Part shown: in pieces, positions 41,285-48,312 of the stretch | How the letters are laid out: each line of letters opens with the position of its first letter | Numbering within the stretch: the first letter of the stretch is position 1 | UHGV virus genome: UHGV-1351408 | Length of the DNA stretch: 64,000 bases | Direction: 5' to 3' (one strand) | Origin: a virus | Position numbers and translations under genes: made by a program | The notes under the pieces: model-generated | What the model saw: only the letters and a program-made list of their open reading frames with translations | What the model was told of the DNA's origin: nothing | Databases searched by the model: none

Positions 41285-41360
41285 TGGAGAATCCGAAGGG
41301 ACTCGAACCCTTATAAACCTGTTTTGCAGACAGGCACATAGCCATTTCTGTCACGGATTC
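41285..41360 (-). tRNA. tRNA-Cys(GCA)
   Basis: Acceptor GAATCCG/CGGATTC, T-loop TTCGAGT, anticodon loop CTGCAAA, U73, CCA encoded. Confidence 0.7.
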
Positions 41361-41364
41361 AAAT

Positions 41365-41457
41365 TGGAGGAAGATACCAGACTTGAACTGGTACACCGAT
41401 TTCTCAGTTACTGGCAGTTTAGCAAACTGCTCCCTTACCTTTTAGGGTTAATCTTCC
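41365..41457 (-). tRNA. tRNA-Ser(GCT), long variable arm
   Basis: 93 nt; anticodon stem GCAGT/ACTGC, loop TTGCTAA. Confidence 0.6.
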
Positions 41458-41458
41458 A

Positions 41459-42193
41459 TTATTTCTGTAATGCGTTCTTCATTTCTGGTGTTGCAATAGT
41501 GTCAATCACACCAGTTTTACAAGCATCGTCAAACCAGTCTGGTAAGATACCTGCTAAGAACCCATTGATATTCGTTTTAAGGTACTCTGCAATAAGGGCA
41601 GCTTCTTCTTCAATCATCTGCACAACTTCATCTGCATAAGCTGTAATCTTCGAAATACCTTCATTAATCTTACTAACAGCTTGGTTAGCTAAATCAGAAA
41701 TAGTATCAAGACCTTTGTCAATAGCATCTTGTAAGTCACTTAATACATCATTAACACCGTCTAGTGCACTGTTAATCATATCAATAGCTTTTTGACCATA
41801 CTCTGTAGCAACACCCATAATACCACTAAATGGTGTACAACCGACTTGTTCACCTGCTGCACCCATAACATTAGAATAACCTTTTGCTACCTGCATACGT
41901 GATGAAAACTCATCAATGGACTTTTGACCGTAATCCGTCAGCGTTTTGGTAGTTGATGTAGTACTTGTCAGACTCGTTGTAAAGCTGTTAAGCAGAACTG
42001 TTGTAAGTCCAGCAGCAACAAGTTTATCCTTTATTGTAGGGTCTGTTACAGAGCTAATAGAGCTTACAAGTGATGTAGAGGCAGCTACGGTTCCACCGAG
42101 AACTGCTGCACCAGTAATAAGGGGATTAGAAAACCCTCTACCGGTTTTTAAGAGATTAAAAATCTCCTTACCTTGTTCTGTCATCTCTTTCAT
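41459..42193 (-). CDS. hypothetical Ser/Thr-rich protein inside the tRNA array
   Basis: ORF 41459-42256; start moved to MKEMTEQ (AAAGGTG RBS) to avoid tRNA-Phe. Confidence 0.45.
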   Translation of the reverse strand: MKEMTEQGKEIFNLLKTGRGFSNPLITGAAVLGGTVAASTSLVSSISSVTDPTIKDKLVAAGLTTVLLNSFTTSLTSTTSTTKTLTDYGQKSIDEFSSRMQVAKGYSNVMGAAGEQVGCTPFSGIMGVATEYGQKAIDMINSALDGVNDVLSDLQDAIDKGLDTISDLANQAVSKINEGISKITAYADEVVQMIEEEAALIAEYLKTNINGFLAGILPDWFDDACKTGVIDTIATPEMKNALQK

Positions 42194-42209
42194 TAAGCAC
42201 CTTTGAAAT

Positions 42210-42286
42210 TGGTAGTCCAGTGGGATTTGAACCCTCTTCTCATGTTTTTCAGACACGCGCTTTAACCATATAAGCTACTTGGACTA
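42210..42286 (-). tRNA. tRNA-Phe(GAA)
   Basis: Acceptor TAGTCCA/TGGACTA, anticodon loop CTGAAAA. Confidence 0.6.
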
Positions 42287-42291
42287 TAAAT

Positions 42292-42367
42292 TGGGGTGAC
42301 CTACGGGATTTGAACCCGTATAGACCATGTTCACAGCATGGGTCATTACCATTTATGATAAGGCCAC
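42292..42367 (-). tRNA. tRNA-His(GTG)
   Basis: Anticodon loop CTGTGAA; extra 5' G and C73. Confidence 0.7.
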
Positions 42368-42398
42368 ATTTAAGGACTCTCGTAAGAACCCTTAGAAG

Positions 42399-42474
42399 TG
42401 GCAGCGGCATAAGGATTTGAACCTTAATAAGACAGCTTCAGAGACTGCTGCATTGCCAGTTATGCTATACCGCT
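42399..42474 (-). tRNA. tRNA-Gln(CTG)
   Basis: Loop CTCTGAA, G73. Confidence 0.5.
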
Positions 42475-42479
42475 AAATT

Positions 42480-42558
42480 TGGTACTCCATATCGGATTCG
42501 AACCGATACATAACACAGATTTTAAGTCTGGCCTCTCTGCCAATTGGAGTAATGGAGC
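42480..42558 (-). tRNA. tRNA with Leu anticodon TAA, short variable arm
   Basis: 79 nt; loop CTTAAAA; Leu-type D-loop AATTGGCAGAG; A73. Confidence 0.5.
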
Positions 42559-42560
42559 AT

Positions 42561-42636
42561 TGGCGGGGGATGTTGGAATTGAACCAACTTCTTCGATTTC
42601 AAAGACCGAGGTTTTAACCTTGTAAACTAATCCCCT
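42561..42636 (-). tRNA. tRNA-Gln(TTG)
   Basis: Anticodon stem TCGGT/ATCGA, loop CTTTGAA, G73. Confidence 0.55.
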
Positions 42637-42644
42637 TTAAATCT

Positions 42645-43202
42645 TTACTTTCTTAGTGGATGAATAAAGAATGCCAACATAACTCTTTCCCTTGAGAATG
42701 CTCTTTCTTCTGGGACAACACTTTTTAGCTTCCACCCAATATAAATTCTCCAGTAAAACTGTTTACCAAAGACTTTAATTGATGGGATAAAAGCGAATAA
42801 TCCCCAAGCATTGCTGTTCCACATTAGGAGATAACCTGTCTGATTATCTTCAGGGTTAGAACTTACGTTGATATTACCTTTCCACTTAGTAACATCTTTT
42901 ACATCTCTTCCTAACACATGGTAAGAGAAGTTATAAGCTTTGTTTCTCCAGAGCCAACCAACTCTCTGCATATAGACACCAAGCTTACCAATCTTTCTAA
43001 TCTTAGCCCATCGTTCGATATGACCTTCATCACCATCAATTGGGTTGTCATAAGTTTCCATCCATCTGAACCCGAAAGGTAAGTGTCCTTTCTTCTCACT
43101 GTAGAATGGAACTACAAAAGGTGCTAAGATAACTGCTAAGATTGCTGCAAATGGCTCTAATAAAGCTAAGAAAATCCATGAAGCATACTTCAAATATCTC
43201 AT
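42645..43202 (-). CDS. membrane protein inside the tRNA array
   Basis: 185 aa; N-terminal hydrophobic segment WIFLALLEPFAAILAVILAPFVVPF. Confidence 0.45.
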   Translation of the reverse strand: MRYLKYASWIFLALLEPFAAILAVILAPFVVPFYSEKKGHLPFGFRWMETYDNPIDGDEGHIERWAKIRKIGKLGVYMQRVGWLWRNKAYNFSYHVLGRDVKDVTKWKGNINVSSNPEDNQTGYLLMWNSNAWGLFAFIPSIKVFGKQFYWRIYIGWKLKSVVPEERAFSRERVMLAFFIHPLRK

Positions 43203-43441
43203 TGTCTAATCCTAGTAAGGAGGTAAACATTATTATCTGTTTCTGAGTTTTCTGGTAAAGCTGTCTCAAAATTGACGCTTTTAAATTGTCTCCCACCAAA
43301 GTAATGACCAATAAATTTTTGTACTTTTATTGGGTCACATTCCCAGCCGACTTTCAAGAAAATGTGGGTATCTATAGTGGGAACCCTTACAAACTCAATA
43401 CTATTGGAATTTTCATGTTCAACGACGATTAATGTTTGCAT
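43199..43441 (-). CDS. hypothetical protein
   Basis: 80 aa. Confidence 0.4.
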   Translation of the reverse strand: MQTLIVVEHENSNSIEFVRVPTIDTHIFLKVGWECDPIKVQKFIGHYFGGRQFKSVNFETALPENSETDNNVYLLTRIRQ

Positions 43442-43459
43442 AAATCTCTCTTATTTATC

Positions 43460-43535
43460 TGGCGCAGGATAAGGGACTTGAACCCCTATTAACAGCTTCG
43501 TAGACTGTTGCTCTATCCATTTGAACTAATCCTGC
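43460..43535 (-). tRNA. tRNA-Arg(ACG)
   Basis: Acceptor GCAGGAT/ATCCTGC, loop CTACGAA. Confidence 0.7.
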
Positions 43536-43650
43536 TTACCTACGAGAACACCATACAGTTTTTCACAAACTTTGCTTTTACGTCTGTTTAGATATGACGC
43601 TCTAAACTTTTTTTGCAATTGACTTATTACTCATAGTGTTCTCCTAAAAT

Positions 43651-43728
43651 TGGTGTTCCAAGACGGATTCGAACCGTCACTAGTACAAGGTTTGAGCTTG
43701 CATCCTCTGCCAATTGGGATACTGGAAC
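43651..43728 (-). tRNA. tRNA with Leu anticodon CAA, short variable arm
   Basis: 78 nt; loop CTCAAAC; D-loop AATTGGCAGAGG; A73. Confidence 0.5.
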
Positions 43729-43729
43729 A

Positions 43730-43804
43730 TGGTACTCACTAAAGGACTTGAACCTTTTTCTTCATCTTGTAAGGGTGATGTTTTACCATATAAACTAAGC
43801 GAGT
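43730..43804 (-). tRNA. tRNA-Val(TAC)
   Basis: Loop CTTACAA. Confidence 0.5.
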
Positions 43805-43900
43805 GTGAAAGAGGTCTGAAGTTGTGCCACTAACTCAACTCCGTGGAATTTGTTACGGTCTTCAGTTGACTCAAAGTGGTCTTTCACTTGACCTCTGAAT

Positions 43901-43976
43901 TGGTGCTCCCACAAGGATTCGAACCCTGATAAGTTGCTTACAAGGCAACCGTAATAGCCAATTATACGATAGGAGC
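43901..43976 (-). tRNA. tRNA-Thr(TGT)
   Basis: Anticodon stem GTTGC/GCAAC, loop CTTGTAA. Confidence 0.7.
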
Positions 43977-43983
43977 ATTAATT

Positions 43984-44058
43984 TGGAGCATCCAGAGGGA
44001 ATCGAACCCTCAACCTCAGTTTGGAAGACTGTAATTTTCCCGTTTAAACTATGGATGC
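43984..44058 (-). tRNA. tRNA-Gly(TCC)
   Basis: Acceptor GCATCCA/TGGATGC, loop CTTCCAA. Confidence 0.65.
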
Positions 44059-44064
44059 ACTAAT

Positions 44065-44140
44065 TGGTGGAGTCACTGAGAATTGAACTCAGTTCCCAAG
44101 TTTGCAAAACTCGAATTTTAACCATATAAACTATGACCCC
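44065..44140 (-). tRNA. tRNA-Ala(TGC)
   Basis: Loop TTTGCAA. Confidence 0.6.
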
Positions 44141-44145
44141 AATTT

Positions 44146-44221
44146 TGGTACAGGTGGAGGGAATTGAACCCATCGTCTTACTGATTAAGAGTCAGCCGCA
44201 TAACCATTTTGCTACACCTGC
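44146..44221 (-). tRNA. tRNA-Lys(CTT)
   Basis: Loop CTCTTAA. Confidence 0.55.
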
Positions 44222-44228
44222 ATTAATT

Positions 44229-44305
44229 TGGTACACCTAGAGAGATTCGAACTCACACTGAGCAGATTCTAAGTCTGCTGCCTCTACCAATTGGGCTATA
44301 GGTGC
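44229..44305 (-). tRNA. tRNA with Leu anticodon TAG, short variable arm
   Basis: 77 nt; anticodon stem GCAGA/TCTGC, loop CTTAGAA; D-loop AATTGGTAGAGG; A73. Confidence 0.55.
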
Positions 44306-44560
44306 ATTAAATCTTTTTAGAGAACTTCTAAGAACCTAAGCAACAAGGTTCCACAACAAGCTGTAATAACCTTAGAAGCCCTCTAAAAAGACCTAATTTG
44401 GTCTTTGCATAGTCTTGTTTAATCCGGTGACTAGAACCTTTGGAGAGCTTGATATTATCTCTTCTCCGTGACACCTACTAGGTGCTTTATCAGTGTGTAC
44501 GACAATACACGAGGGATAAACCGAAAATGCGAGCAAGCATGGACGGTGTAAATCTTATTA

Positions 44561-44650
44561 GGCGGTAAGTAAAGGAGTCGAACCCTCACCGTATCTCTAC
44601 AGTGGCAACAGTTTTCAAGACTGTTTGGCTGCCATTAGCCGCTACCTACC
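44561..44650 (-). tRNA. tRNA-Ser(TGA), long variable arm
   Basis: 90 nt; anticodon stem ACAGT/ACTGT, loop CTTGAAA; 3' CC encoded, terminal A not. Confidence 0.6.
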
Positions 44651-44663
44651 CCTAATAAGACTT

Positions 44664-44746
44664 TGGCATGGGACGGAGGAGTTGAACCCCTTTGAAACGG
44701 TTTTGGAGGCCGTTGCTCATGCCTTAGAGTCTTAACATCGTCCCAC
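44664..44746 (-). tRNA. tRNA-like element, anticodon unassigned (CCA/Trp possible)
   Basis: 83 nt with good acceptor (GTGGGAC/GTCCCAT) and T-arm, but D/anticodon region does not fold canonically. Confidence 0.3.
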
Positions 44747-44888
44747 ATTATAATTCGAAGCTTACCGTATTATCTCAACACTGTAAAGCCCCTTCTCAGA
44801 TTATTTACATGTTCTGGAAAACATGAGATACAGACCACCTCCCTACAGGAAGACCCGCTTAGGTCGTCTAAGTAATCTGCTAACTAAT

Positions 44889-44965
44889 TGGCACACCCTA
44901 CAGGATTCGAACCTGTAACTAACGATTTAGAAGACCGTTGCTCTATCCAATTGAACTAAGGGTGC
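44889..44965 (-). tRNA. tRNA-Arg(TCT)
   Basis: Anticodon stem ACGGT/ATCGT, loop CTTCTAA. Confidence 0.7.
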
Positions 44966-45302
44966 ATTAATCTTTAAAGACTCTCTTAGAAAGCCCTTAA
45001 AGATGCCCACCTTATTAATCATACCGTGGGCTAGTACGCCAAATTCTTTGATGAGGGATTGGAATACCTCACTGGTGTTTAGCCTATCAAGCTACTGCCA
45101 GAAAAACATTGTCGTTTGCATTTATTTTAAATTTGCAAAATAGACGCTACGCAACGAAAACTATTCAGAATATGTACAACAAATTTCCCCACATTGTGTT
45201 ACGTCTAACGCTCATGTATTGGTGTTTGAATTATACATATTATGAATTATTTTTAGTTACTATAAAGTAGTCACATCTTAATGTCAACAACTTTATTGAA
45301 AT

Positions 45303-45378
45303 TGGTACTGGTAGGTGGAATCGAACCACCGATGTTCCCTTATCAGGGGAGTGTTATAACCTTCTTAACTATACCAGC
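45303..45378 (-). tRNA. tRNA-Ile(GAT)
   Basis: Loop CTGATAA. Confidence 0.6.
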
Positions 45379-45379
45379 T

Positions 45380-45456
45380 TGGAGGTTCAGATGGGAATCG
45401 AACCCACATTCATAGGGCTTATGAAACCCCTGCATTACCTTATCTGCGACTGAACC
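45380..45456 (-). tRNA. tRNA-Met(CAT)
   Basis: Loop TTCATAA; GGG/CCC run in anticodon stem. Confidence 0.55.
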
Positions 45457-45534
45457 ATAATAAGTACCCTAGTTAGAGAAACTGTTGAGTGGGTGTTTCC
45501 AGCCGCGCAGGTGTTTCTCAGTTAAGGGTGAATT

Positions 45535-45610
45535 TGGTAGAAGTGGAGGGATTCGAACCCATCGCCTGTCAGATTAAAAGTCTGCCGCATCACCATTCTG
45601 CTACACTTCC
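45535..45610 (-). tRNA. tRNA-Lys(TTT)
   Basis: Loop CTTTTAA. Confidence 0.6.
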
Positions 45611-45814
45611 ATTAAATTATCTTTGTAGATAAGCTACCCAGACTTGCTTAAGGTCTGTAGCGATGTGCCTTTTTGGGTTTAAATCTAGAATTTACCCTTT
45701 CACCCTTTGTGGTCGCATACTCACAGGTAAGCTTAATAACTTATCTACAAAGATAATTACCAGACCGTTGTTTATCATCTTAAGTGCTACCATTACACCA
45801 ACTCGACATCTGCC

Positions 45815-45838
45815 GAGTGAAGGAATCGAACCTTCGCC
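45815..45838 (-). other. isolated tRNA T-arm-like module (GAAGG-TTCGATT-CCTTC) without an acceptor stem
   Basis: Canonical T-arm, but no 5' partner for the would-be acceptor within 100 nt; lies inside a conserved-box spacer element. Confidence 0.35.
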
Positions 45839-46068
45839 TTTTCTTTACCGGAGAAATAGATTGTTTAAGTTTTGCTGTAAACGGTCTTCTGTAAATTTGT
45901 TGAGCCAGACCAAGTTTTAAATTTTTTCAAAATTAAATTGGCTTGAAAATATCATACGTACTTGCTGAATTTGGTCTTCTGCTCCTTTAAAGAATACTCG
46001 TAAGAACTCTTTAAGGGAGGGGCTAAATAGCCCTCTCAAAACATCATTTTGAAATACTTATTATAATT

Positions 46069-46145
46069 TGGCGGCTACGATGAGACTTGAACTCACATCA
46101 TCTCCCGTGACAGGGGAGTATTTTCTCCAGTTAAACTACATAGCC
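46069..46145 (-). tRNA. tRNA-Asp(GTC)
   Basis: Anticodon stem CTCCC/GGGAG, loop CTGTCAC. Confidence 0.7.
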
Positions 46146-46150
46146 TCTAT

Positions 46151-46238
46151 TGGTGTGCCGTGTAGGAGTCGAACCTACCGAGTCTCAATGACAAGGGATT
46201 TACAGTCCCCACCGCTACCATCTACGGGATAACGACAC
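46151..46238 (-). tRNA. tRNA-Tyr(GTA), long variable arm
   Basis: 88 nt; loop CTGTAAA. Confidence 0.7.
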
Positions 46239-46247
46239 ATTTTAATT

Positions 46248-46324
46248 TGGCGGTTAGTCAGGGATTCGAACCCTGTGCCATTCGCTTAACAGGCGACCGC
46301 ACATACCTTATGTGCTTCCTAACC
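46248..46324 (-). tRNA. tRNA-Asn(GTT)
   Basis: Loop CTGTTAA. Confidence 0.6.
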
Positions 46325-46400
46325 TTAATACATTACCAGACCGTGTTTTTCTTTTATCCGCAAAAAGTAGTTTGTTGCTGAATACGGTCTTCTGTAAAAT

Positions 46401-46477
46401 TGGAGGCGGGTGCAGGAGTCGAACCTGCCGATACCATGCTAATGAGACATGTGAGACGCCCTTTCTCTATACCCGCA
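46401..46477 (-). tRNA. tRNA with CAT anticodon (Met or Ile2)
   Basis: Loop CTCATTA; 1-72 mismatch. Confidence 0.45.
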
Positions 46478-46568
46478 ATTCTTAATGACCAGACCAAATC
46501 TCTTCTTTGTCCGATTTACCTTCAGATGAATAAGATTAAGTTTGCTGTAATTGGTCTTCTGTCAAAAC

Positions 46569-46646
46569 TGGCGTTCCAGAAGGGATTTGAACCCTCAGAT
46601 ATCCACTTTGAAAGAGTGGTGACTTTACCATTTTGTCTACTGGAAC
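46569..46646 (-). tRNA. tRNA-Glu(TTC)
   Basis: Anticodon stem CCACT/AGTGG, loop CTTTCAA. Confidence 0.7.
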
Positions 46647-46653
46647 ATTAATT

Positions 46654-46730
46654 TGGTCTCTGTTGGAGGACTTGAACCTCCGGCCTTACCGCCCCAAACG
46701 GAACGCTCTACCAAGCTGAGCTAAACAGAG
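46654..46730 (-). tRNA. tRNA-Pro(TGG)
   Basis: D-arm AGCTCAGCTTGGTAGAGC, loop TTTGGGG. Confidence 0.7.
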
Positions 46731-46896: not shown

Positions 46897-48312
46897 TTAC
46901 CAGATGTAACGGTCAAGCATTACTGCTTTGAGCATTACGCTGATTGGGTCAAACTTCTCACCACCAAGCAGAGCTTTTAAAGTGGCTGGAGAGAACCCTG
47001 ATACCATTGCTACACCATTATCCTTAACAGATACTTCGCAAGTACCATTACGGTTTGCTAAGTACCAGAATACTAGTTGTGGCATTTCGTATCCAGCTTT
47101 TTTGTACTTACTCTGAATTGCTTCAAAGTTTGTACGACCATTTGCACCATCAACCTGATTAAACTCCATATCAGAGAAGATAATAAGCTTACTTGGCATA
47201 TCTTTCTGAGTCAAGTTGTTTCTCTTACCTGTTTCAAGAATGCGGTCAAAAGCTGCTTGTAAGTTAGTTGAGCCATATTCAACGTGTCGCATCACCTGAC
47301 GATGACGGTTTCGTAAATCACCACTCAGTTCGATGAAGTGAGGGTTTGTTGAATAAACCATTAACTCATTCTTAAAGCAACCTGTATTGCGTTCTGCTAC
47401 ATACAAGGCAAGTGATACACCAATATCCAGAGCAGTAATGGAGCCAAAATTCACCCAAGACATTGAACTTGATACATCAGACATACACAAGATGTTTTCA
47501 CCTTCTGCCATCCAGTTTGGTAGTGCTTTCCACTGCTCATTAGCAACATCTGCATTACCATACTTGACAGATTTAATCACATCGTATGGGTAAACAGCAC
47601 CAGCGTTAATCTTAGTCTCACCTTTTGATAAGGACTCGATGTAAGCTTTGTAACGCTCTCCATCTTTACGGTTAAACAGTTTTTGGTAACGTGCAGCAGC
47701 AAGTGAAGGAATCTTACTGTAGTCAATCTTACCAAACTCATTAGCAGAGATTTTTTGCTCAACTGTATCAGATAGTGCAGACAACAGTGTGCGGTACTCT
47801 TTCTCACTCAAGTTGGCAAACTTGCAGAAACGTTTTACAAACTGCTTATGACGTGGTTTGACTCGTGGCAACCACTTAGCCGCCAAACCTGCTGTTGCAG
47901 GGTCTAGTAATGCTGCTTCTAAATGTTTGAAGGCATCTGTCTCGAAACGAGTACCTACGAAGATTTTGAAGTCATCAAAACGACCAAGTTCTGCAATCTT
48001 ATCCATAATGCGAAGAACCTGCGTAGACTCTAAAACTTTGTCTTCAATTGCTTGAAGCAAAACAGTTCTGAAGGCTTTACGCTCACCCATACCTTCTCGT
48101 ACATCTCGCATATGAAGCAAAATACGAACTGCAACATCAACATCCTCACGCAAAGCTTTGTAGAACAGGTCTGGTAAGATTTCTACGTTGCTACGGCTTG
48201 AACCAGCAGCTTTGTAAAAGTCTACAAGAGCAGACATTGATGAAGTATGGTTTACAGCACCATTTTCAGTTCGACCTGCATGAAGGTGCGCATGTTTAAA
48301 TAATTCGCTCAT
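46897..48312 (-). CDS. vWA-domain protein with MIDAS motif (possibly Ro60/TROVE-like)
   Basis: 471 aa; helical N-terminal part; C-terminal vWA features: DxSxS (CMSDVSSSMS), later STN and FSDME. Confidence 0.6.
   Translation of the reverse strand: MSELFKHAHLHAGRTENGAVNHTSSMSALVDFYKAAGSSRSNVEILPDLFYKALREDVDVAVRILLHMRDVREGMGERKAFRTVLLQAIEDKVLESTQVLRIMDKIAELGRFDDFKIFVGTRFETDAFKHLEAALLDPATAGLAAKWLPRVKPRHKQFVKRFCKFANLSEKEYRTLLSALSDTVEQKISANEFGKIDYSKIPSLAAARYQKLFNRKDGERYKAYIESLSKGETKINAGAVYPYDVIKSVKYGNADVANEQWKALPNWMAEGENILCMSDVSSSMSWVNFGSITALDIGVSLALYVAERNTGCFKNELMVYSTNPHFIELSGDLRNRHRQVMRHVEYGSTNLQAAFDRILETGKRNNLTQKDMPSKLIIFSDMEFNQVDGANGRTNFEAIQSKYKKAGYEMPQLVFWYLANRNGTCEVSVKDNGVAMVSGFSPATLKALLGGEKFDPISVMLKAVMLDRYIW

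What the first reader, a model, noticed from the sequence alone, without database searches (positions are those of the whole stretch)
45761..46561. Four hairpin elements with a conserved 20-nt box interleaved with tRNA genes, next to a vWA/MIDAS protein gene
Between tRNA genes there are four non-tRNA elements that each end (plus-strand coordinates) in the box TTGCTG-W-A-W-W-YGGTCTTCTG (45872-45891, 45962-45981, 46375-46394, 46542-46561). Each box pairs with an upstream AGACC(G/A)(T/A) segment (45761, 45907, 46338, 46491) to give a 7-8 bp stem enclosing 40-110 nt. The first element also contains an orphan tRNA T-arm (45815-45838). A degenerate fifth copy may sit at 43851-43865. They share strand and operon with the tRNAs and lie 0.4-1 kb from a vWA protein gene. 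Ro60/Rsr proteins carry a vWA domain and bind Y RNAs, some of which have tRNA-like modules; these elements could be a new family of structured ncRNAs in that vein, or processing signals, or MITE-like insertions.
Basis: partly seen in the sequence, partly recalled or inferred. Interest (0 to 1): 0.7.

Follow-up and report, generated by a model that had tools for sequence, protein, structure and literature searches.

The report
Phage Y-RNA-like partners of Ro60-like protein
Four small structured RNA genes hidden among the tRNA genes of this Felix O1-type phage belong to a widespread, previously undefined RNA family that sits next to a Ro60-like protein gene in many phages and carries the same signature as the enigmatic Class I RNAs of social amoebae.

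Summary
The 20-nt box occurs exactly four times (0.06 expected by chance). On the minus strand, which also carries the 26 tRNAs, each element has a covarying 4-bp outer helix, an AGA/G internal loop and a 7-bp helix. A single-stranded WWUWCAGCAA box and a variable interior follow. The suggested fifth copy is not supported.

The neighbouring vWA gene (DUF2828+DUF7788) has no TROVE sequence match. Its AlphaFold model nevertheless matches Ro60 structures over its full length; they are the top nine PDB hits.

Homologues of this protein (40-47% identity) carry the same RNA motif. A covariance model found it in 52 of 75 diverse phage loci, all on the gene's strand and mostly within 500 nt of the gene. 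The consensus is AG-N5-N3-C(A/C)GCAA...N5-CU-G. A model built without any Felix-like sequence recovers three window elements at E 2e-6 to 4e-5.

E1 encloses a circularly permuted tRNA-like body in the YrlA module order.

Best reading: these are Y-RNA-like partners of a phage Ro60 paralogue. Binding is inferred, not shown.

Unexpectedly, the helix, UUACAGCAA box and CUG end match dictyostelid Class I RNAs.

The parts
46486..46564 (-). Element E4, between tRNA-Glu and tRNA-Met. Outer helix 46561-46564/46486-46489. AGA loop 46558-46560 opposite G46490. Inner helix AGACCAA 46551-46557 / UUGGUCU 46491-46497. Box UUACAGCAA, with CAGCAA at 46542-46547. The interior holds a 5-bp hairpin with a 7-nt loop.
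   Evidence: R1 scores 76.5 bits. The independent model R3 scores 36.4 bits, E 2e-6.
46333..46397 (-). Element E3, between tRNA-Met and tRNA-Asn. Outer helix 46394-46397/46333-46336. Inner helix AGACCGU 46384-46390 / ACGGUCU 46338-46344. CAGCAA at 46375-46380. Interior hairpin CUUUU-UGCGGAU-AAAAG.
   Evidence: z -2.5. R1 scores 70 bits. R3 scores 35.3 bits, E 4e-6. Orthologues switch the outer helix from UUAC/GUAA to UUGC/GCAA.
45902..45984 (-). Element E2, downstream of tRNA-Asp. Outer helix GAGC/GCUC 45981-45984/45902-45905. Inner helix 45971-45977/45907-45913. CAGCAA at 45962-45967. Interior A/U-rich hairpin.
   Evidence: R1 scores 73.1 bits. R3 scores 31.2 bits, E 4e-5.
45757..45894 (-). 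Element E1, the YrlA-like member. Outer helix 45891-45894/45757-45760. Inner helix 45880-45887/45762-45769. CAGCAA at 45872-45877. The interior is a permuted tRNA-like body: V (anticodon-arm-like) hairpin 45840-45856, T arm 45819-45835, closed 7-bp acceptor-like hairpin 45801-45818, D arm 45784-45798.
   Evidence: Fold. R1 scores 53.7 bits. The acceptor hairpin has 3 pairs with double-sided changes in orthologues, and 97.4% of cells are paired. The in-silico re-permuted sequence is called tRNA-Thr(GGU) by ARAGORN. There is a partial Rfam tRNA hit of 22 bits.
46897..48312 (-). Gene for a 471-aa Ro60-like protein: an N-terminal helical-repeat domain (Pfam DUF2828) and a C-terminal vWA/MIDAS domain (DUF7788). 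It is PHROG 850, 'RNA-binding protein'.
   Evidence: AlphaFold model pLDDT 88.3. Foldseek against the PDB gives Ro60 as the top 9 hits. The Bas63 orthologue gp130 was reported as Ro60-like and as a counter to the Ppl defence (PMC11482910).
46749..46877 (-). Two sigma-70-like promoter matches (46877->46849 and 46786->46757) between the protein gene and the first tRNA. They are possible start points of the tRNA/RNA transcript.
   Evidence: These are consensus matches only, and their number is no higher than in shuffles.
41285..46730 (-). Array of 26 tRNA genes in which the four elements are embedded. E4 and E3 each start 7 nt after the CCA end of the upstream tRNA.

Best explanation
The four elements are genes for small non-coding RNAs of about 60-140 nt. 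They are transcribed with the phage tRNAs and released by the tRNA-processing enzymes.

Each RNA folds so that its 5' and 3' ends form a conserved helix: AG-N5 pairing with N5-CU, followed by an unpaired G. In Felix-like phages an outer 4-bp helix extends this. Immediately 3' of the 5' strand lies a single-stranded box, WWUWCAGCAA.

I infer that this helix-plus-box module is the binding site for the ring-shaped Ro60-like protein encoded just upstream. This would mirror the way Y RNAs bind Ro60/Rsr through their terminal helix.

The variable interior would then be the effector module. In E1 it is a tRNA mimic in the YrlA arrangement of V hairpin, T arm, closed 7-bp acceptor hairpin and D arm. 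This module may be cut by RNase P and receive CCA. In E2-E4 the interior is a simple hairpin.

By analogy with Rsr/Y-RNA complexes, the RNP would recruit or gate host RNA-handling enzymes such as PNPase or tRNA enzymes during infection. It may also underlie the anti-defence phenotype reported for the Bas63 orthologue.

Shown here: the family, its structure, its covariation, its linkage to the gene, and the protein fold. Inferred: binding, processing and downstream function.
For: 1. The elements are non-random and structured.

2. G.U pairs appear only in the minus-strand sense, and there are no A.C cells. This points to selection at the RNA level, on the tRNA strand.

3. The neighbouring protein has the Ro60 fold with an intact MIDAS site.

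4. Model R2 gives 75 hits at E<=1 in 75 loci carrying 40-47% identical homologues. All are on the gene's strand, none lies inside the gene, 59 lie within 500 nt of it, and 52 loci have at least one. A pattern scan gives 101 hits on the gene strand, 35 on the opposite strand and 23 in shuffles.

5. Many of these loci have no tRNAs at all.

6. Model R3, built without any Felix-like sequence, finds E4, E3 and E2 at E 2e-6 to 4e-5. The next hit in 64 kb is at 0.2.

7. E1 and many distant members carry a YrlA-like tRNA mimic. Rfam YrlA scores 30-39 bits on L084, L100 and L156. Some members encode N73-CCA in the acceptor loop, as expected if RNase P cleaves them like M. smegmatis YrlA (PMC4201824).

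8. The helix-plus-box module also occurs in the opposite permutation, replacing the anticodon arm of a normal-order tRNA-like RNA (L123, z -5.3). It therefore behaves as a discrete module.

9. In Listeria phage CKA15, three very highly transcribed unannotated regions lie within 2 kb upstream of the homologous gene (PMC12282133). R2 finds three elements at that position in the related phage LMTA-34.

10. The PhageMaP authors independently noted that gp130 is Ro60-like and guessed that Y RNAs hide among the tRNAs.
Against: There are no expression or binding data for this phage.

The box (CAGCAA) differs from the Ro60/Rsr-contact motifs known so far (GGUCCGA, GNCGAAN0-1G).

Rfam Y_RNA and YrlA models give no hit on the window's elements. 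Pfam TROVE does not match the protein.

Sequences in alignments A7 and A9 were picked by a scan that required complementarity, so their near-100% pairing is partly by construction. The strand and position biases and the cross-model detections are the independent evidence.

The only protein shown to bind the look-alike dictyostelid Class I RNAs directly is an RRM protein (Rnp1A), not a Ro60-like one.

In this phage two promoter-like sites separate the gene from the RNAs, so co-regulation is not established.
Confidence: 0.72

Rival explanations
1. The elements are punctuation or processing signals of the tRNA polycistron, for example RNase III, RNase E or RNase P guide structures, with no function of their own as RNAs and no link to the vWA protein.
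For: They sit exactly in tRNA-sized slots. E4 and E3 start 7 nt after a CCA end, and the next tRNA begins about 13 nt after each. Other long inverted repeats in the same array, one bracketing tRNA-Ser, look like processing stems. The outer helix that covaries only in Felix-like phages could be a precursor-processing feature.
Against: The same helix-plus-box motif flanks the Ro60-like gene in many phage loci without a single tRNA in 11 kb, such as L082, L091-L095, L101-L103, L105 and L110. The invariant single-stranded CAGCAA box and the elaborate tRNA-mimic interiors are not needed for a cleavage site. The 7-bp helices are too short for RNase III.
Confidence: 0.1
2. They are functional small RNAs that act independently of the Ro60-like protein. 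They might be tRNA-mimic decoys for host anticodon nucleases or other defence sensors, or ligands of a host or phage RRM-type protein. The gene linkage would then reflect only shared early expression.
For: E1 mimics tRNA-Thr(GGU) closely. Phage tRNAs are known to counter tRNA-targeting defences (cited in PMC11482910). Dictyostelid Class I RNAs with the same box bind the RRM protein Rnp1A directly.
Against: Only some family members carry tRNA-like modules, whereas every member carries the helix and box. The tight linkage to one protein family, same strand and mostly within 500 nt, persists across Gram-negative, Gram-positive and actinobacterial phages. That is the classic signature of an RNA-protein pair, and it was used to find YrlA.
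Confidence: 0.12
3. They are DNA-level elements: MITE-like or attC-like mobile repeats, recombination sites for shuffling tRNA cassettes, or decayed tRNA pseudogenes.
For: The copies have terminal inverted repeats and variable lengths. E1 exists in long (about 130-nt) and short (about 62-nt) forms in related phages. One relative has a T-arm-to-T-arm deletion fusing E1 to tRNA-Lys. Some genome annotations call part of the region a tRNA pseudogene.
Against: Number and order are fixed at four per genome in nearly all Felix-like contigs. The elements lie strictly on one strand relative to the protein gene: 78 of 78 hits. G.U pairs are tolerated but A.C never is. Compensatory changes preserve the helices, including the acceptor-like hairpin. 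No transposase or integrase lies nearby and no target-site duplications were noticed.
Confidence: 0.04

Closest known systems
Bacterial/phage YrlA and YrlB Y RNAs (Rfam RF02553; Chen et al. 2014, PMC4201824)
   Same: These RNAs are encoded within a few kb of a Ro60-family gene on the same strand. Their 5' and 3' ends pair to form the presumed protein-binding helix, with a conserved purine-rich motif on the 5' side. One RNA per locus carries a tRNA mimic in the order V, T arm, closed acceptor stem and D arm, alongside simpler siblings (YrlB-like). A 7-bp acceptor stem, as in M. smegmatis YrlA, is cut by RNase P and CCA-tailed. Distant members of the present family score 30-39 bits against RF02553. 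The mycobacteriophage 'Ro-like' proteins are 33% identical to the window's protein.
   Different: The conserved motif is WWUWC(A/C)GCAA, lying single-stranded after a 7-bp helix framed by AG...CU-G. It is not GNCGAAN0-1G. The window's E1 gets no YrlA hit at E<=10. The protein matches Pfam DUF2828+DUF7788, not TROVE. There are four RNAs, interleaved with tRNA genes.
Dictyostelid Class I RNAs (Rfam RF01414; Kjellin et al. 2021, PMC7919456)
   Same: Both have a short covarying terminal helix joining the 5' and 3' ends. A conserved motif follows the 5' strand directly: CCUUACAGCAA in Class I RNAs, and UUACAGCAA in E1, E4 and many other phage members. Both start with (A)AG and end with CUG(U), have a variable A-rich interior, and are 42-65 nt long (short phage forms are 41-78 nt). 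Eight Class I sequences align without gaps to phage elements at both ends, with CAGCAA and the terminal UG invariant. RF01414 is the only non-tRNA Rfam family that hits E3, E4 and E1, with coordinates matching the element boundaries.
   Different: Rfam scores are 12.8-20 bits, far below the gathering score of 41.5. Class I RNAs have a 6-bp stem and a 4-nt spacer, against 7 bp and 3 nt in phages. They are eukaryotic genes with a DUSE promoter and no tRNA-like versions are known. Their only proven direct binder is the RRM protein Rnp1A. They were reported to be unique to Dictyostelia. Whether Dictyostelium has a DUF2828 protein could not be checked here.
Metazoan and Deinococcus Y RNAs with Ro60/Rsr (RF00019; Stein 2005; Chen 2013)
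   Same: A ring-shaped HEAT-repeat plus vWA protein is paired with several small RNAs. Their terminal helix, with an internal loop or bulge, binds the protein, and their variable loop recruits partners such as PNPase. There are two to four paralogous RNAs per genome.
   Different: There is no sequence similarity in either the RNA or the protein. The helix motif (GGUCCGA with a bulged C) is absent. There is no Rfam hit.
Thermus phage phiLo Ro60 with Yrl1/Yrl2 (PMC12135203)
   Same: This is a phage-encoded Ro60 homologue with adjacent Y-like RNAs, and binding was shown experimentally. Its structure (9kop/9l5y) is among the top matches to the window protein's model.
   Different: phiLo Ro60 is a canonical TROVE protein. 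Its RNAs carry the CGAA motif in an internal bulge and are not embedded in a tRNA array.
Circularly permuted tRNA / two-piece tmRNA genes
   Same: In E1 the 3' part of a tRNA (anticodon-like arm, T arm, 3' acceptor strand) precedes the 5' part (5' acceptor strand, D arm). Re-permuting the sequence in silico gives a canonical tRNA-Thr(GGU) cloverleaf.
   Different: There is no bulge-helix-bulge motif or ligation pathway. The acceptor ends are joined by a 4-nt loop, and the break lies between the D arm and the anticodon arm, where the helix-plus-box module is attached. The anticodon loop has C33 instead of U33.

Membership tests
YrlA (RF02553) | Encoded within about 4 kb of a Ro60-family gene, on the same strand | tested here: met
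   E1-E4 lie 0.33-1.1 kb downstream of the Ro60-like gene, on the same strand.
YrlA (RF02553) | tRNA-like domain in the order V stem-loop, T arm, acceptor stem-loop, D arm, enclosed by a 5'/3' helix | tested here: met
   E1 fold. Across 11 orthologues, 97.4% of cells are paired and the acceptor hairpin shows compensatory changes. E2-E4 lack this domain and are YrlB-like.
YrlA (RF02553) | GNCGAAN0-1G motif near the 5' end | tested here: not met
   The conserved motif is WWUWCAGCAA. No GNCGAA is present in the 5' strands.
YrlA (RF02553) | Reaches the Rfam gathering score (69 bits) | tested here: not met
   No YrlA hit on the window at E<=10. Distant family members reach only 30-39 bits.
Y RNA in the functional sense | Physically bound by a Ro60-family protein | not testable with these tools
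   This needs RIP, CLIP or EMSA. Only genomic linkage was shown.
Dictyostelid Class I RNA (RF01414) | Short terminal helix joining the 5' and 3' ends, with structure conserved but not sequence | tested here: met
   (7 pairs, 5 with double-sided changes; note the selection caveat). Class I RNAs are described the same way in PMC7919456.
Dictyostelid Class I RNA (RF01414) | About 11-nt motif CCUUACAGCAA adjacent to the 5' strand of the helix, and a CUG(U) 3' end | tested here: met
   E1 has GUUUACAGCAA, E4 AAUUACAGCAA, and E2 and E3 have AUUCAGCAA. All end the helix with CU followed by G. The joint alignment has invariant CAGCAA and terminal UG.
Dictyostelid Class I RNA (RF01414) | Reaches the Rfam gathering score (41.5 bits) | tested here: not met
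   Scores are 20.0, 19.7 and 12.8 bits for E3, E4 and E1.
Dictyostelid Class I RNA (RF01414) | Eukaryotic gene with an upstream DUSE promoter; 42-65 nt | tested here: not met
   This is a phage genome, and the elements lie inside a bacterial-type tRNA array. The helix-to-helix cores are 53-126 nt.
Ro60/TROVE protein family (for the neighbouring gene) | HEAT-repeat ring followed by a vWA domain with a MIDAS site (the fold) | tested here: met
   The nine best Foldseek PDB hits are Ro60 chains over the full length, probability 1.00, TM 0.51-0.66. D279xS281xS283, T349 and D381 are invariant.
Ro60/TROVE protein family (for the neighbouring gene) | Match to the Pfam TROVE profile, or sequence similarity to solved Ro60 structures | tested here: not met
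   Only DUF2828 and DUF7788 match at E<=10. Single-sequence and profile searches of PDB sequences find no Ro60.
tRNA (for E1) | Canonical cloverleaf in 5'-to-3' order with open acceptor ends | tested here: not met
   ARAGORN and the Rfam tRNA model do not call E1. There is only a 22-bit partial hit. It becomes tRNA-Thr(GGU) only after in-silico re-permutation.
MITE / mobile repeat | Copies dispersed on both strands, with insertion polymorphism and target-site duplications | tested here: not met
   There are only four copies in 64 kb, all on one strand. Their number and order are fixed in relatives. Target-site duplications were not searched for systematically.

The most novel reading that the evidence does not exclude
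The phage elements and the Class I RNAs of dictyostelid social amoebae are one RNA family. This family would be the cognate ligand of the DUF2828 branch of the Ro60 superfamily, a branch found in phages, in giant viruses of protists and, by Pfam's description as I recall it, in eukaryotes.

If so, Class I RNAs would not be unique to Dictyostelia. They have been abundant, developmentally important RNAs of unknown mechanism since 2004, and they would be Y-RNA analogues. Their function could then be approached through a Ro60-like partner protein.

The phage versions would also show that the same helix-plus-box handle can carry interchangeable effector modules, including tRNA mimics in both circular permutations.
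Probability: 0.4. Interest if true: 0.92.

Novelty: new variant of a known kind. Interest (0 to 1): 0.78.

Why it matters
The Ro60-like protein family occurs in at least 710 GenBank phage records. These include Felix O1-like, KVP40-like, P100-like, Campylobacter, staphylococcal and mycobacterial phages used in typing, biocontrol and therapy. Until now there was no defined RNA partner outside mycobacteriophage YrlA.

A simple consensus (AG-N5-N3-CAGCAA...N5-CU-G) and a covariance model now let these RNAs be annotated. In current records they are missed, called pseudo-tRNAs, or overlaid with spurious ORFs.

The finding gives a concrete, testable basis for two published guesses: that Bas63 gp130 works with hidden Y RNAs, and that the hyper-abundant transcripts of Listeria phage CKA15 are Y RNAs.

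It offers a natural series of modular RNAs, with one handle and many effector domains, for dissecting what Ro60-type RNPs do in infection and anti-defence.

If the resemblance to dictyostelid Class I RNAs reflects common function, a 20-year-old open question in Dictyostelium RNA biology becomes directly testable.

Tried and rejected
- **Sigma-70 promoter reading of the box.** By eye, the hexamer spacings do not fit. The scan finds promoter-like sites only upstream of the array, and no more of them than in shuffles. Rejected.
- **Fifth copy at 43851-43865.** No covariance-model hit with filters off. Rejected.
- **Existing Rfam families.** Y_RNA, YrlA and others give nothing for the window's elements, at gathering thresholds or at E<=10. 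The only hits are a partial tRNA hit and weak Dicty_Class_I_RNA hits.
- **Sequence-level link of the protein to TROVE/Ro60.** Pfam at E<=10, and phmmer and profile searches of PDB sequences, were all negative. Only the fold comparison was positive.
- **Loose stem-plus-box scan.** It gave 1152 hits against 945 in shuffles and was uninformative. It was replaced by a stricter pattern and by covariance models.
- **MAFFT alignments A5 and A6.** A5 had two mistyped sequences and A6 had misaligned rows, so they were redone as A7 and A9.
- **AlphaFold-database fold search** for eukaryotic (Dictyostelium) DUF2828 proteins. The library was unavailable.
- **Avesson et al. 2011**, the list of four Class I-binding proteins. 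The paper is not held.
- **Literature searches** for DUF2828, for the motif string, and for Ro60 with Felix O1, Bas63 or Dictyostelium. No paper defining these RNAs was found.
- **Supplementary tables of Chen 2014**, to see which 22 phages were covered. They are not held.
Full report
**Source and setting.** The window is a Felixounavirus, a Felix O1-like E. coli/Salmonella myophage. The region 45600-46600 is 99.3% identical to Escherichia phage EC106 and 97-98% identical to many others. ARAGORN finds 26 tRNA genes, all on the minus strand, between 41285 and 46730. Rfam confirms 24 of them. The finding lies in the promoter-proximal part of this array, just downstream of a 471-aa gene (46897-48312, minus strand).

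**Checking the observation.** The 20-nt box occurs exactly four times at the stated coordinates, even with three mismatches allowed. Shuffles give 0.06 expected matches.

Read on the transcribed (minus) strand, every element has the same plan:
- a 4-bp outer helix;
- an internal loop of AGA opposite a single G;
- a 7-bp helix, AGACC(G/A)(U/A) pairing with (A/U)(C/U)GGUCU;
- a single-stranded WWUWCAGCAA directly after the 5' strand;
- a variable interior of 37-112 nt.

The outer helix differs among the four copies but stays complementary (UUAC/GUAA, UGAC/GUCA, GAGC/GCUC). I collected the elements from 74 IMG/VR stretches that carry the box. This gave 23 distinct short forms in which all 11 pairs are paired in every sequence. 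Five pairs change on both sides. The covariation score is 0.471 against 0.159 in column shuffles (0 of 500 reach it). Sliding the 3' partner by 1-3 columns drops pairing to 20-46%.

The only non-Watson-Crick pairs are G.U in the minus-strand sense. No A.C cells occur. Selection therefore acts on an RNA made from the tRNA strand.

One partner coordinate is off by a base (45762, not 45761).

**Element E1.** Its interior folds into an anticodon-arm-like hairpin (UUUCU-CCGGUAA-AGAAA), a 4-nt connector and a canonical T arm (GAAGG-UUCGAUU-CCUUC). A 7-bp acceptor-like stem closed by a 4-nt loop (ACUCGGC-AGAU-GUCGAGU) follows, then UG and a D arm (GUGU-AAUGGUA-GCAC).

This is a circularly permuted tRNA. 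When I joined the 5' half to the 3' half in silico and added CCA, ARAGORN called a 74-nt tRNA-Thr(GGU).

In 11 distinct orthologues, 97.4% of cells are paired. The acceptor-like hairpin switches between ACUCGGC/GUCGAGU, ACACGU/GCGUGU and ACCCUUC/GAAGGGU, with three pairs changing on both sides. The third variant encodes G-CCA immediately after the 3' acceptor strand.

Some Felix-like phages carry a short E1 (72-76 nt) with the same ends but only a hairpin inside. The helix-plus-box frame and the tRNA-like insert are therefore separable.

**The neighbouring protein.** Pfam gives DUF2828 plus DUF7788, the vWA part. TROVE does not appear even at E<=10. PHROGs calls the family 'RNA-binding protein'. 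Single-sequence and profile searches of PDB sequences find no Ro60.

An AlphaFold model built from 40 homologues has pLDDT 88.3. Its nine best Foldseek matches in the PDB are all Ro60: Xenopus 2i91 and 1yvp, human 9nfa, and Thermus phage phiLo 9kop and 9l5y. They align over the whole length (E 5e-8 to 2e-6, TM 0.51-0.66). The next matches are isolated vWA domains. The MIDAS residues are invariant.

The PhageMaP preprint independently reported that the Bas63 orthologue gp130 resembles Ro60 structurally and lies upstream of the tRNAs. It also reported that gp130 counters the Ppl defence, and speculated that some 'tRNA genes' might be Y RNAs. It did not identify them (PMC11482910).

**Relatives elsewhere.** A protein-guided scan of IMG/VR returned 75 loci whose homologue is only 39-47% identical.
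- In about half of the 60 loci examined, a tRNA array starts right after the gene on the same strand. The others have no tRNA at all.
- An orphan-T-arm scan showed YrlA-like permuted tRNA mimics beside the gene. They are preceded by the same box (UUCAGCAA, UACAGCAA, UUCCGCAA) and enclosed by helices whose sequences differ from phage to phage.
- A model built only from Felix-like elements (R1) found 25 hits in these loci. Of these, 24 were on the gene strand, clustered just before or just after the gene.
- A strict pattern (AG, 4-7 nt, 1-5 nt spacer, YNGCAN, then the complement ending in CUG) gives 101 hits on the gene strand, 35 on the other strand and 23 in shuffles.

The family consensus is 5' AA-AG(G/A)NNNN-WWW-C(A/C)GCAA ... 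NNNN(C/U)CU-G 3', with a constant 10 nt from the A of AG to the box. In 26 members, the five variable pairs of the helix each show several pair types and 99.4% pairing. These sequences were chosen by a scan that demanded complementarity, so this figure is partly circular.

Model R2, built from this set, gave 75 hits at E<=1 in the 75 loci. All are on the gene strand and none lies inside the gene. Fifty-nine lie within 500 nt of it, and 52 loci have at least one. Many of these hits were not in the training set.

A third model (R3) was built from 24 elements of distant phages plus a Listeria phage, with no Felix-like sequence. It finds E4, E3 and E2 in the 64-kb window at E 2e-6, 4e-6 and 4e-5. 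The next hit is at 0.2.

The interiors are modular:
- plain hairpins;
- YrlA-like tRNA mimics, several with N73-CCA encoded in the acceptor loop (L106, L151);
- tRNA-like bodies in normal order that use the helix as their closing stem (L139, L151);
- at least two other conserved modules.

In L123, a 233-kb T4-like contig, the module appears in the opposite permutation. A tRNA-shaped RNA with open acceptor ends carries the helix (closed by a GUCA loop) and the box UCCUGCAA in place of the anticodon arm (z -5.3).

**Known phage cases.** tblastn finds the protein in 710 GenBank phage records. These include Vibrio, Aeromonas, Campylobacter, Listeria, Staphylococcus, Enterococcus, Bacillus and 95 Mycobacterium phages. 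In the mycobacteriophages it is annotated 'Ro-like RNA binding protein' (33% identity).

In mycobacteriophage Nicholas, three elements follow the gene, with the consensus GUGGAC-N3-NN-CAGCAA...N3-GUCCAG. The middle one is tRNA-like and scores 37.9 bits against Rfam YrlA, below the gathering score of 69. Chen et al. 2014 had reported YrlA-like RNAs in 22 phages, including mycobacteriophages, using the same criteria of proximity and shared strand (PMC4201824). The tRNA-like members are therefore a divergent branch of a known kind. The box, the short members and the spread beyond actinophages were not described.

In Listeria phage LMTA-34, R2 finds three elements directly upstream of the gene (E 3e-7, 2e-6, 2e-3). 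For the related phage CKA15, transcriptomics showed three extremely abundant unannotated transcripts within 2 kb upstream of the homologous gene. The protein was also found in virions (PMC12282133). This is indirect expression evidence for the family.

**An unexpected resemblance.** The only non-tRNA Rfam family touching the window's elements is RF01414, the Class I RNAs of Dictyostelium. It scores 20.0, 19.7 and 12.8 bits on E3, E4 and E1, with coordinates coinciding with the elements. These E-values are multiplied by 4227 families. As a single-family test they would be about 6e-4, but the test is post hoc.

Its consensus is GaUcuC-CUUACAGCAA-...-GagAuC-UG. Kjellin et al. 2021 describe Class I RNAs as follows (PMC7919456):
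- 42-65 nt long;
- a 6-bp terminal stem that covaries;
- an 11-nt motif next to the 5' strand;
- conserved start AAG and end CUGU;
- a variable remainder;
- said to be unique to Dictyostelia.

Eight Class I sequences from that paper's supplement align without gaps to phage elements at both ends. CAGCAA and the terminal UG are invariant across the joint alignment. The register differs by one nucleotide: a 6-bp stem with a 4-nt spacer, against 7 bp with 3 nt.

DUF2828/DUF7788 proteins also occur in giant viruses of protists (Pithovirus, ChoanoV1, Marseillevirus, CroV). I could not check whether Dictyostelium encodes one, because the AlphaFold-database library was unavailable. I also could not read which four proteins bind DdR-21. 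This link is therefore a hypothesis.

**Mechanism.** The following is shown:
- a conserved, covarying RNA structure on the tRNA strand;
- a Ro60 fold for the adjacent protein;
- tight, strand-specific linkage of the RNA motif to that protein family across very distant phages;
- YrlA-type tRNA mimicry in E1.

The following is inferred:
- The RNAs are cut out of the tRNA transcript. E4 and E3 begin 7 nt after a CCA end and stop about 13 nt before the next tRNA.
- The helix plus CAGCAA is the protein's binding site.
- The interior modules recruit partners. [quoted passage not shown]
- The RNP remodels or protects RNA during infection, which may explain the anti-Ppl phenotype of gp130.

**Rivals.** Three alternatives remain: pure processing signals, protein-independent decoys, and mobile DNA repeats. 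They are disfavoured by the presence of the motif next to the gene in tRNA-free loci, by the universality of the handle against the variability of the interiors, and by the strand-specific pairing rules and fixed arrangement. None is excluded without experiments.

**Verdict.** The elements are a new variant of the Y-RNA/YrlA kind, with their own binding signature and a distinct Ro60 paralogue. They are absent from Rfam as such and unannotated in phage records. The similarity to dictyostelid Class I RNAs is the most novel lead.

Noticed in passing
window 45615-45636 / 45737-45758; 44306-44332 / 44371-44397; 44550-44562 / 44651-44663: There are other long inverted repeats inside the tRNA array. 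A 22-nt, 95% complementary pair encloses 100 nt between tRNA-Lys and E1. A 27-nt pair forms a long hairpin after tRNA-Leu. A 13-nt pair brackets tRNA-Ser(UGA) exactly. They could be processing stems or further ncRNAs. None carries the CAGCAA box.
   Followed up: partly
window 45663-45920 (+): An 85-aa ORF on the opposite strand overlaps E1. Related genomes annotate it as a hypothetical protein, for example AYO145A orf047. Given the conserved RNA structure underneath, it is probably an annotation artefact.
   Followed up: no
window 41285-46730: The 26 phage tRNAs cover 19 amino acids. tRNA-Trp is the only one missing. E1 mimics a tRNA-Thr(GGU) that the array otherwise lacks; only Thr(UGU) is present.
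   Followed up: no
window 44670-44744 and 44966-45155 (minus strand): There are weak Rfam hits in large non-tRNA spacers of the array: tRNA-Sec-like at 23 bits, and tmRNA or permuted-tmRNA-like at 15-20 bits. They may be degenerate tRNA-like sequences. They were not examined.
   Followed up: no
one IMG/VR Felix-like variant of E1 (176-nt entry): In one relative the T arm of E1 runs straight into the 3' end of tRNA-Lys (…GGTTCGATTCCCTCCACTTCTACCA). This is as expected from a deletion by recombination between the two T arms, and it shows how tRNA-like modules can be gained or lost.
   Followed up: no
L123 9044-9172 (233,234-bp T4-like contig): This is a tRNA-shaped RNA with open acceptor ends. 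Its anticodon arm is replaced by the family's helix (closed by a GUCA loop) plus the box UCCUGCAA. It is the opposite circular permutation of E1 (z -5.3).
   Followed up: partly
L157 (Listeria phage LMTA-34) 928-1479 and 5308-6455: A ROOL RNA lies about 1 kb upstream of the Ro60-like gene (88.5 bits, just under the gathering score of 99.1). An RtcB 'tRNA splicing ligase' gene lies about 1.3 kb downstream. This is an RNA-repair-type neighbourhood.
   Followed up: no
L083 4276, L085 3133, L089 149, L090 1265, L115 4734; L088, L118, L125, L126, L152, L154: Two further conserved interior modules occur within the same helix-plus-box frame. One contains CCUUUCUGGAGGGGAAAGCAAAAACUCGCC. The other ends in CAGGGUUAG…GCCCC. 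Their structures and roles are unknown.
   Followed up: no
L156 (mycobacteriophage Nicholas) 231-1302: A Band-7/SPFH-like membrane protein gene and a tRNA-Tyr lie 1.2-2.2 kb upstream of the Ro-like gene. This recalls the SPFH plus tRNA-like RNA pairing, which I remember from comparative-genomics work on RNA repair systems.
   Followed up: no
L100 10696-10922: A group I intron (Rfam 71.5 bits, above the gathering score) lies in a distant phage locus that also carries three family members.
   Followed up: no
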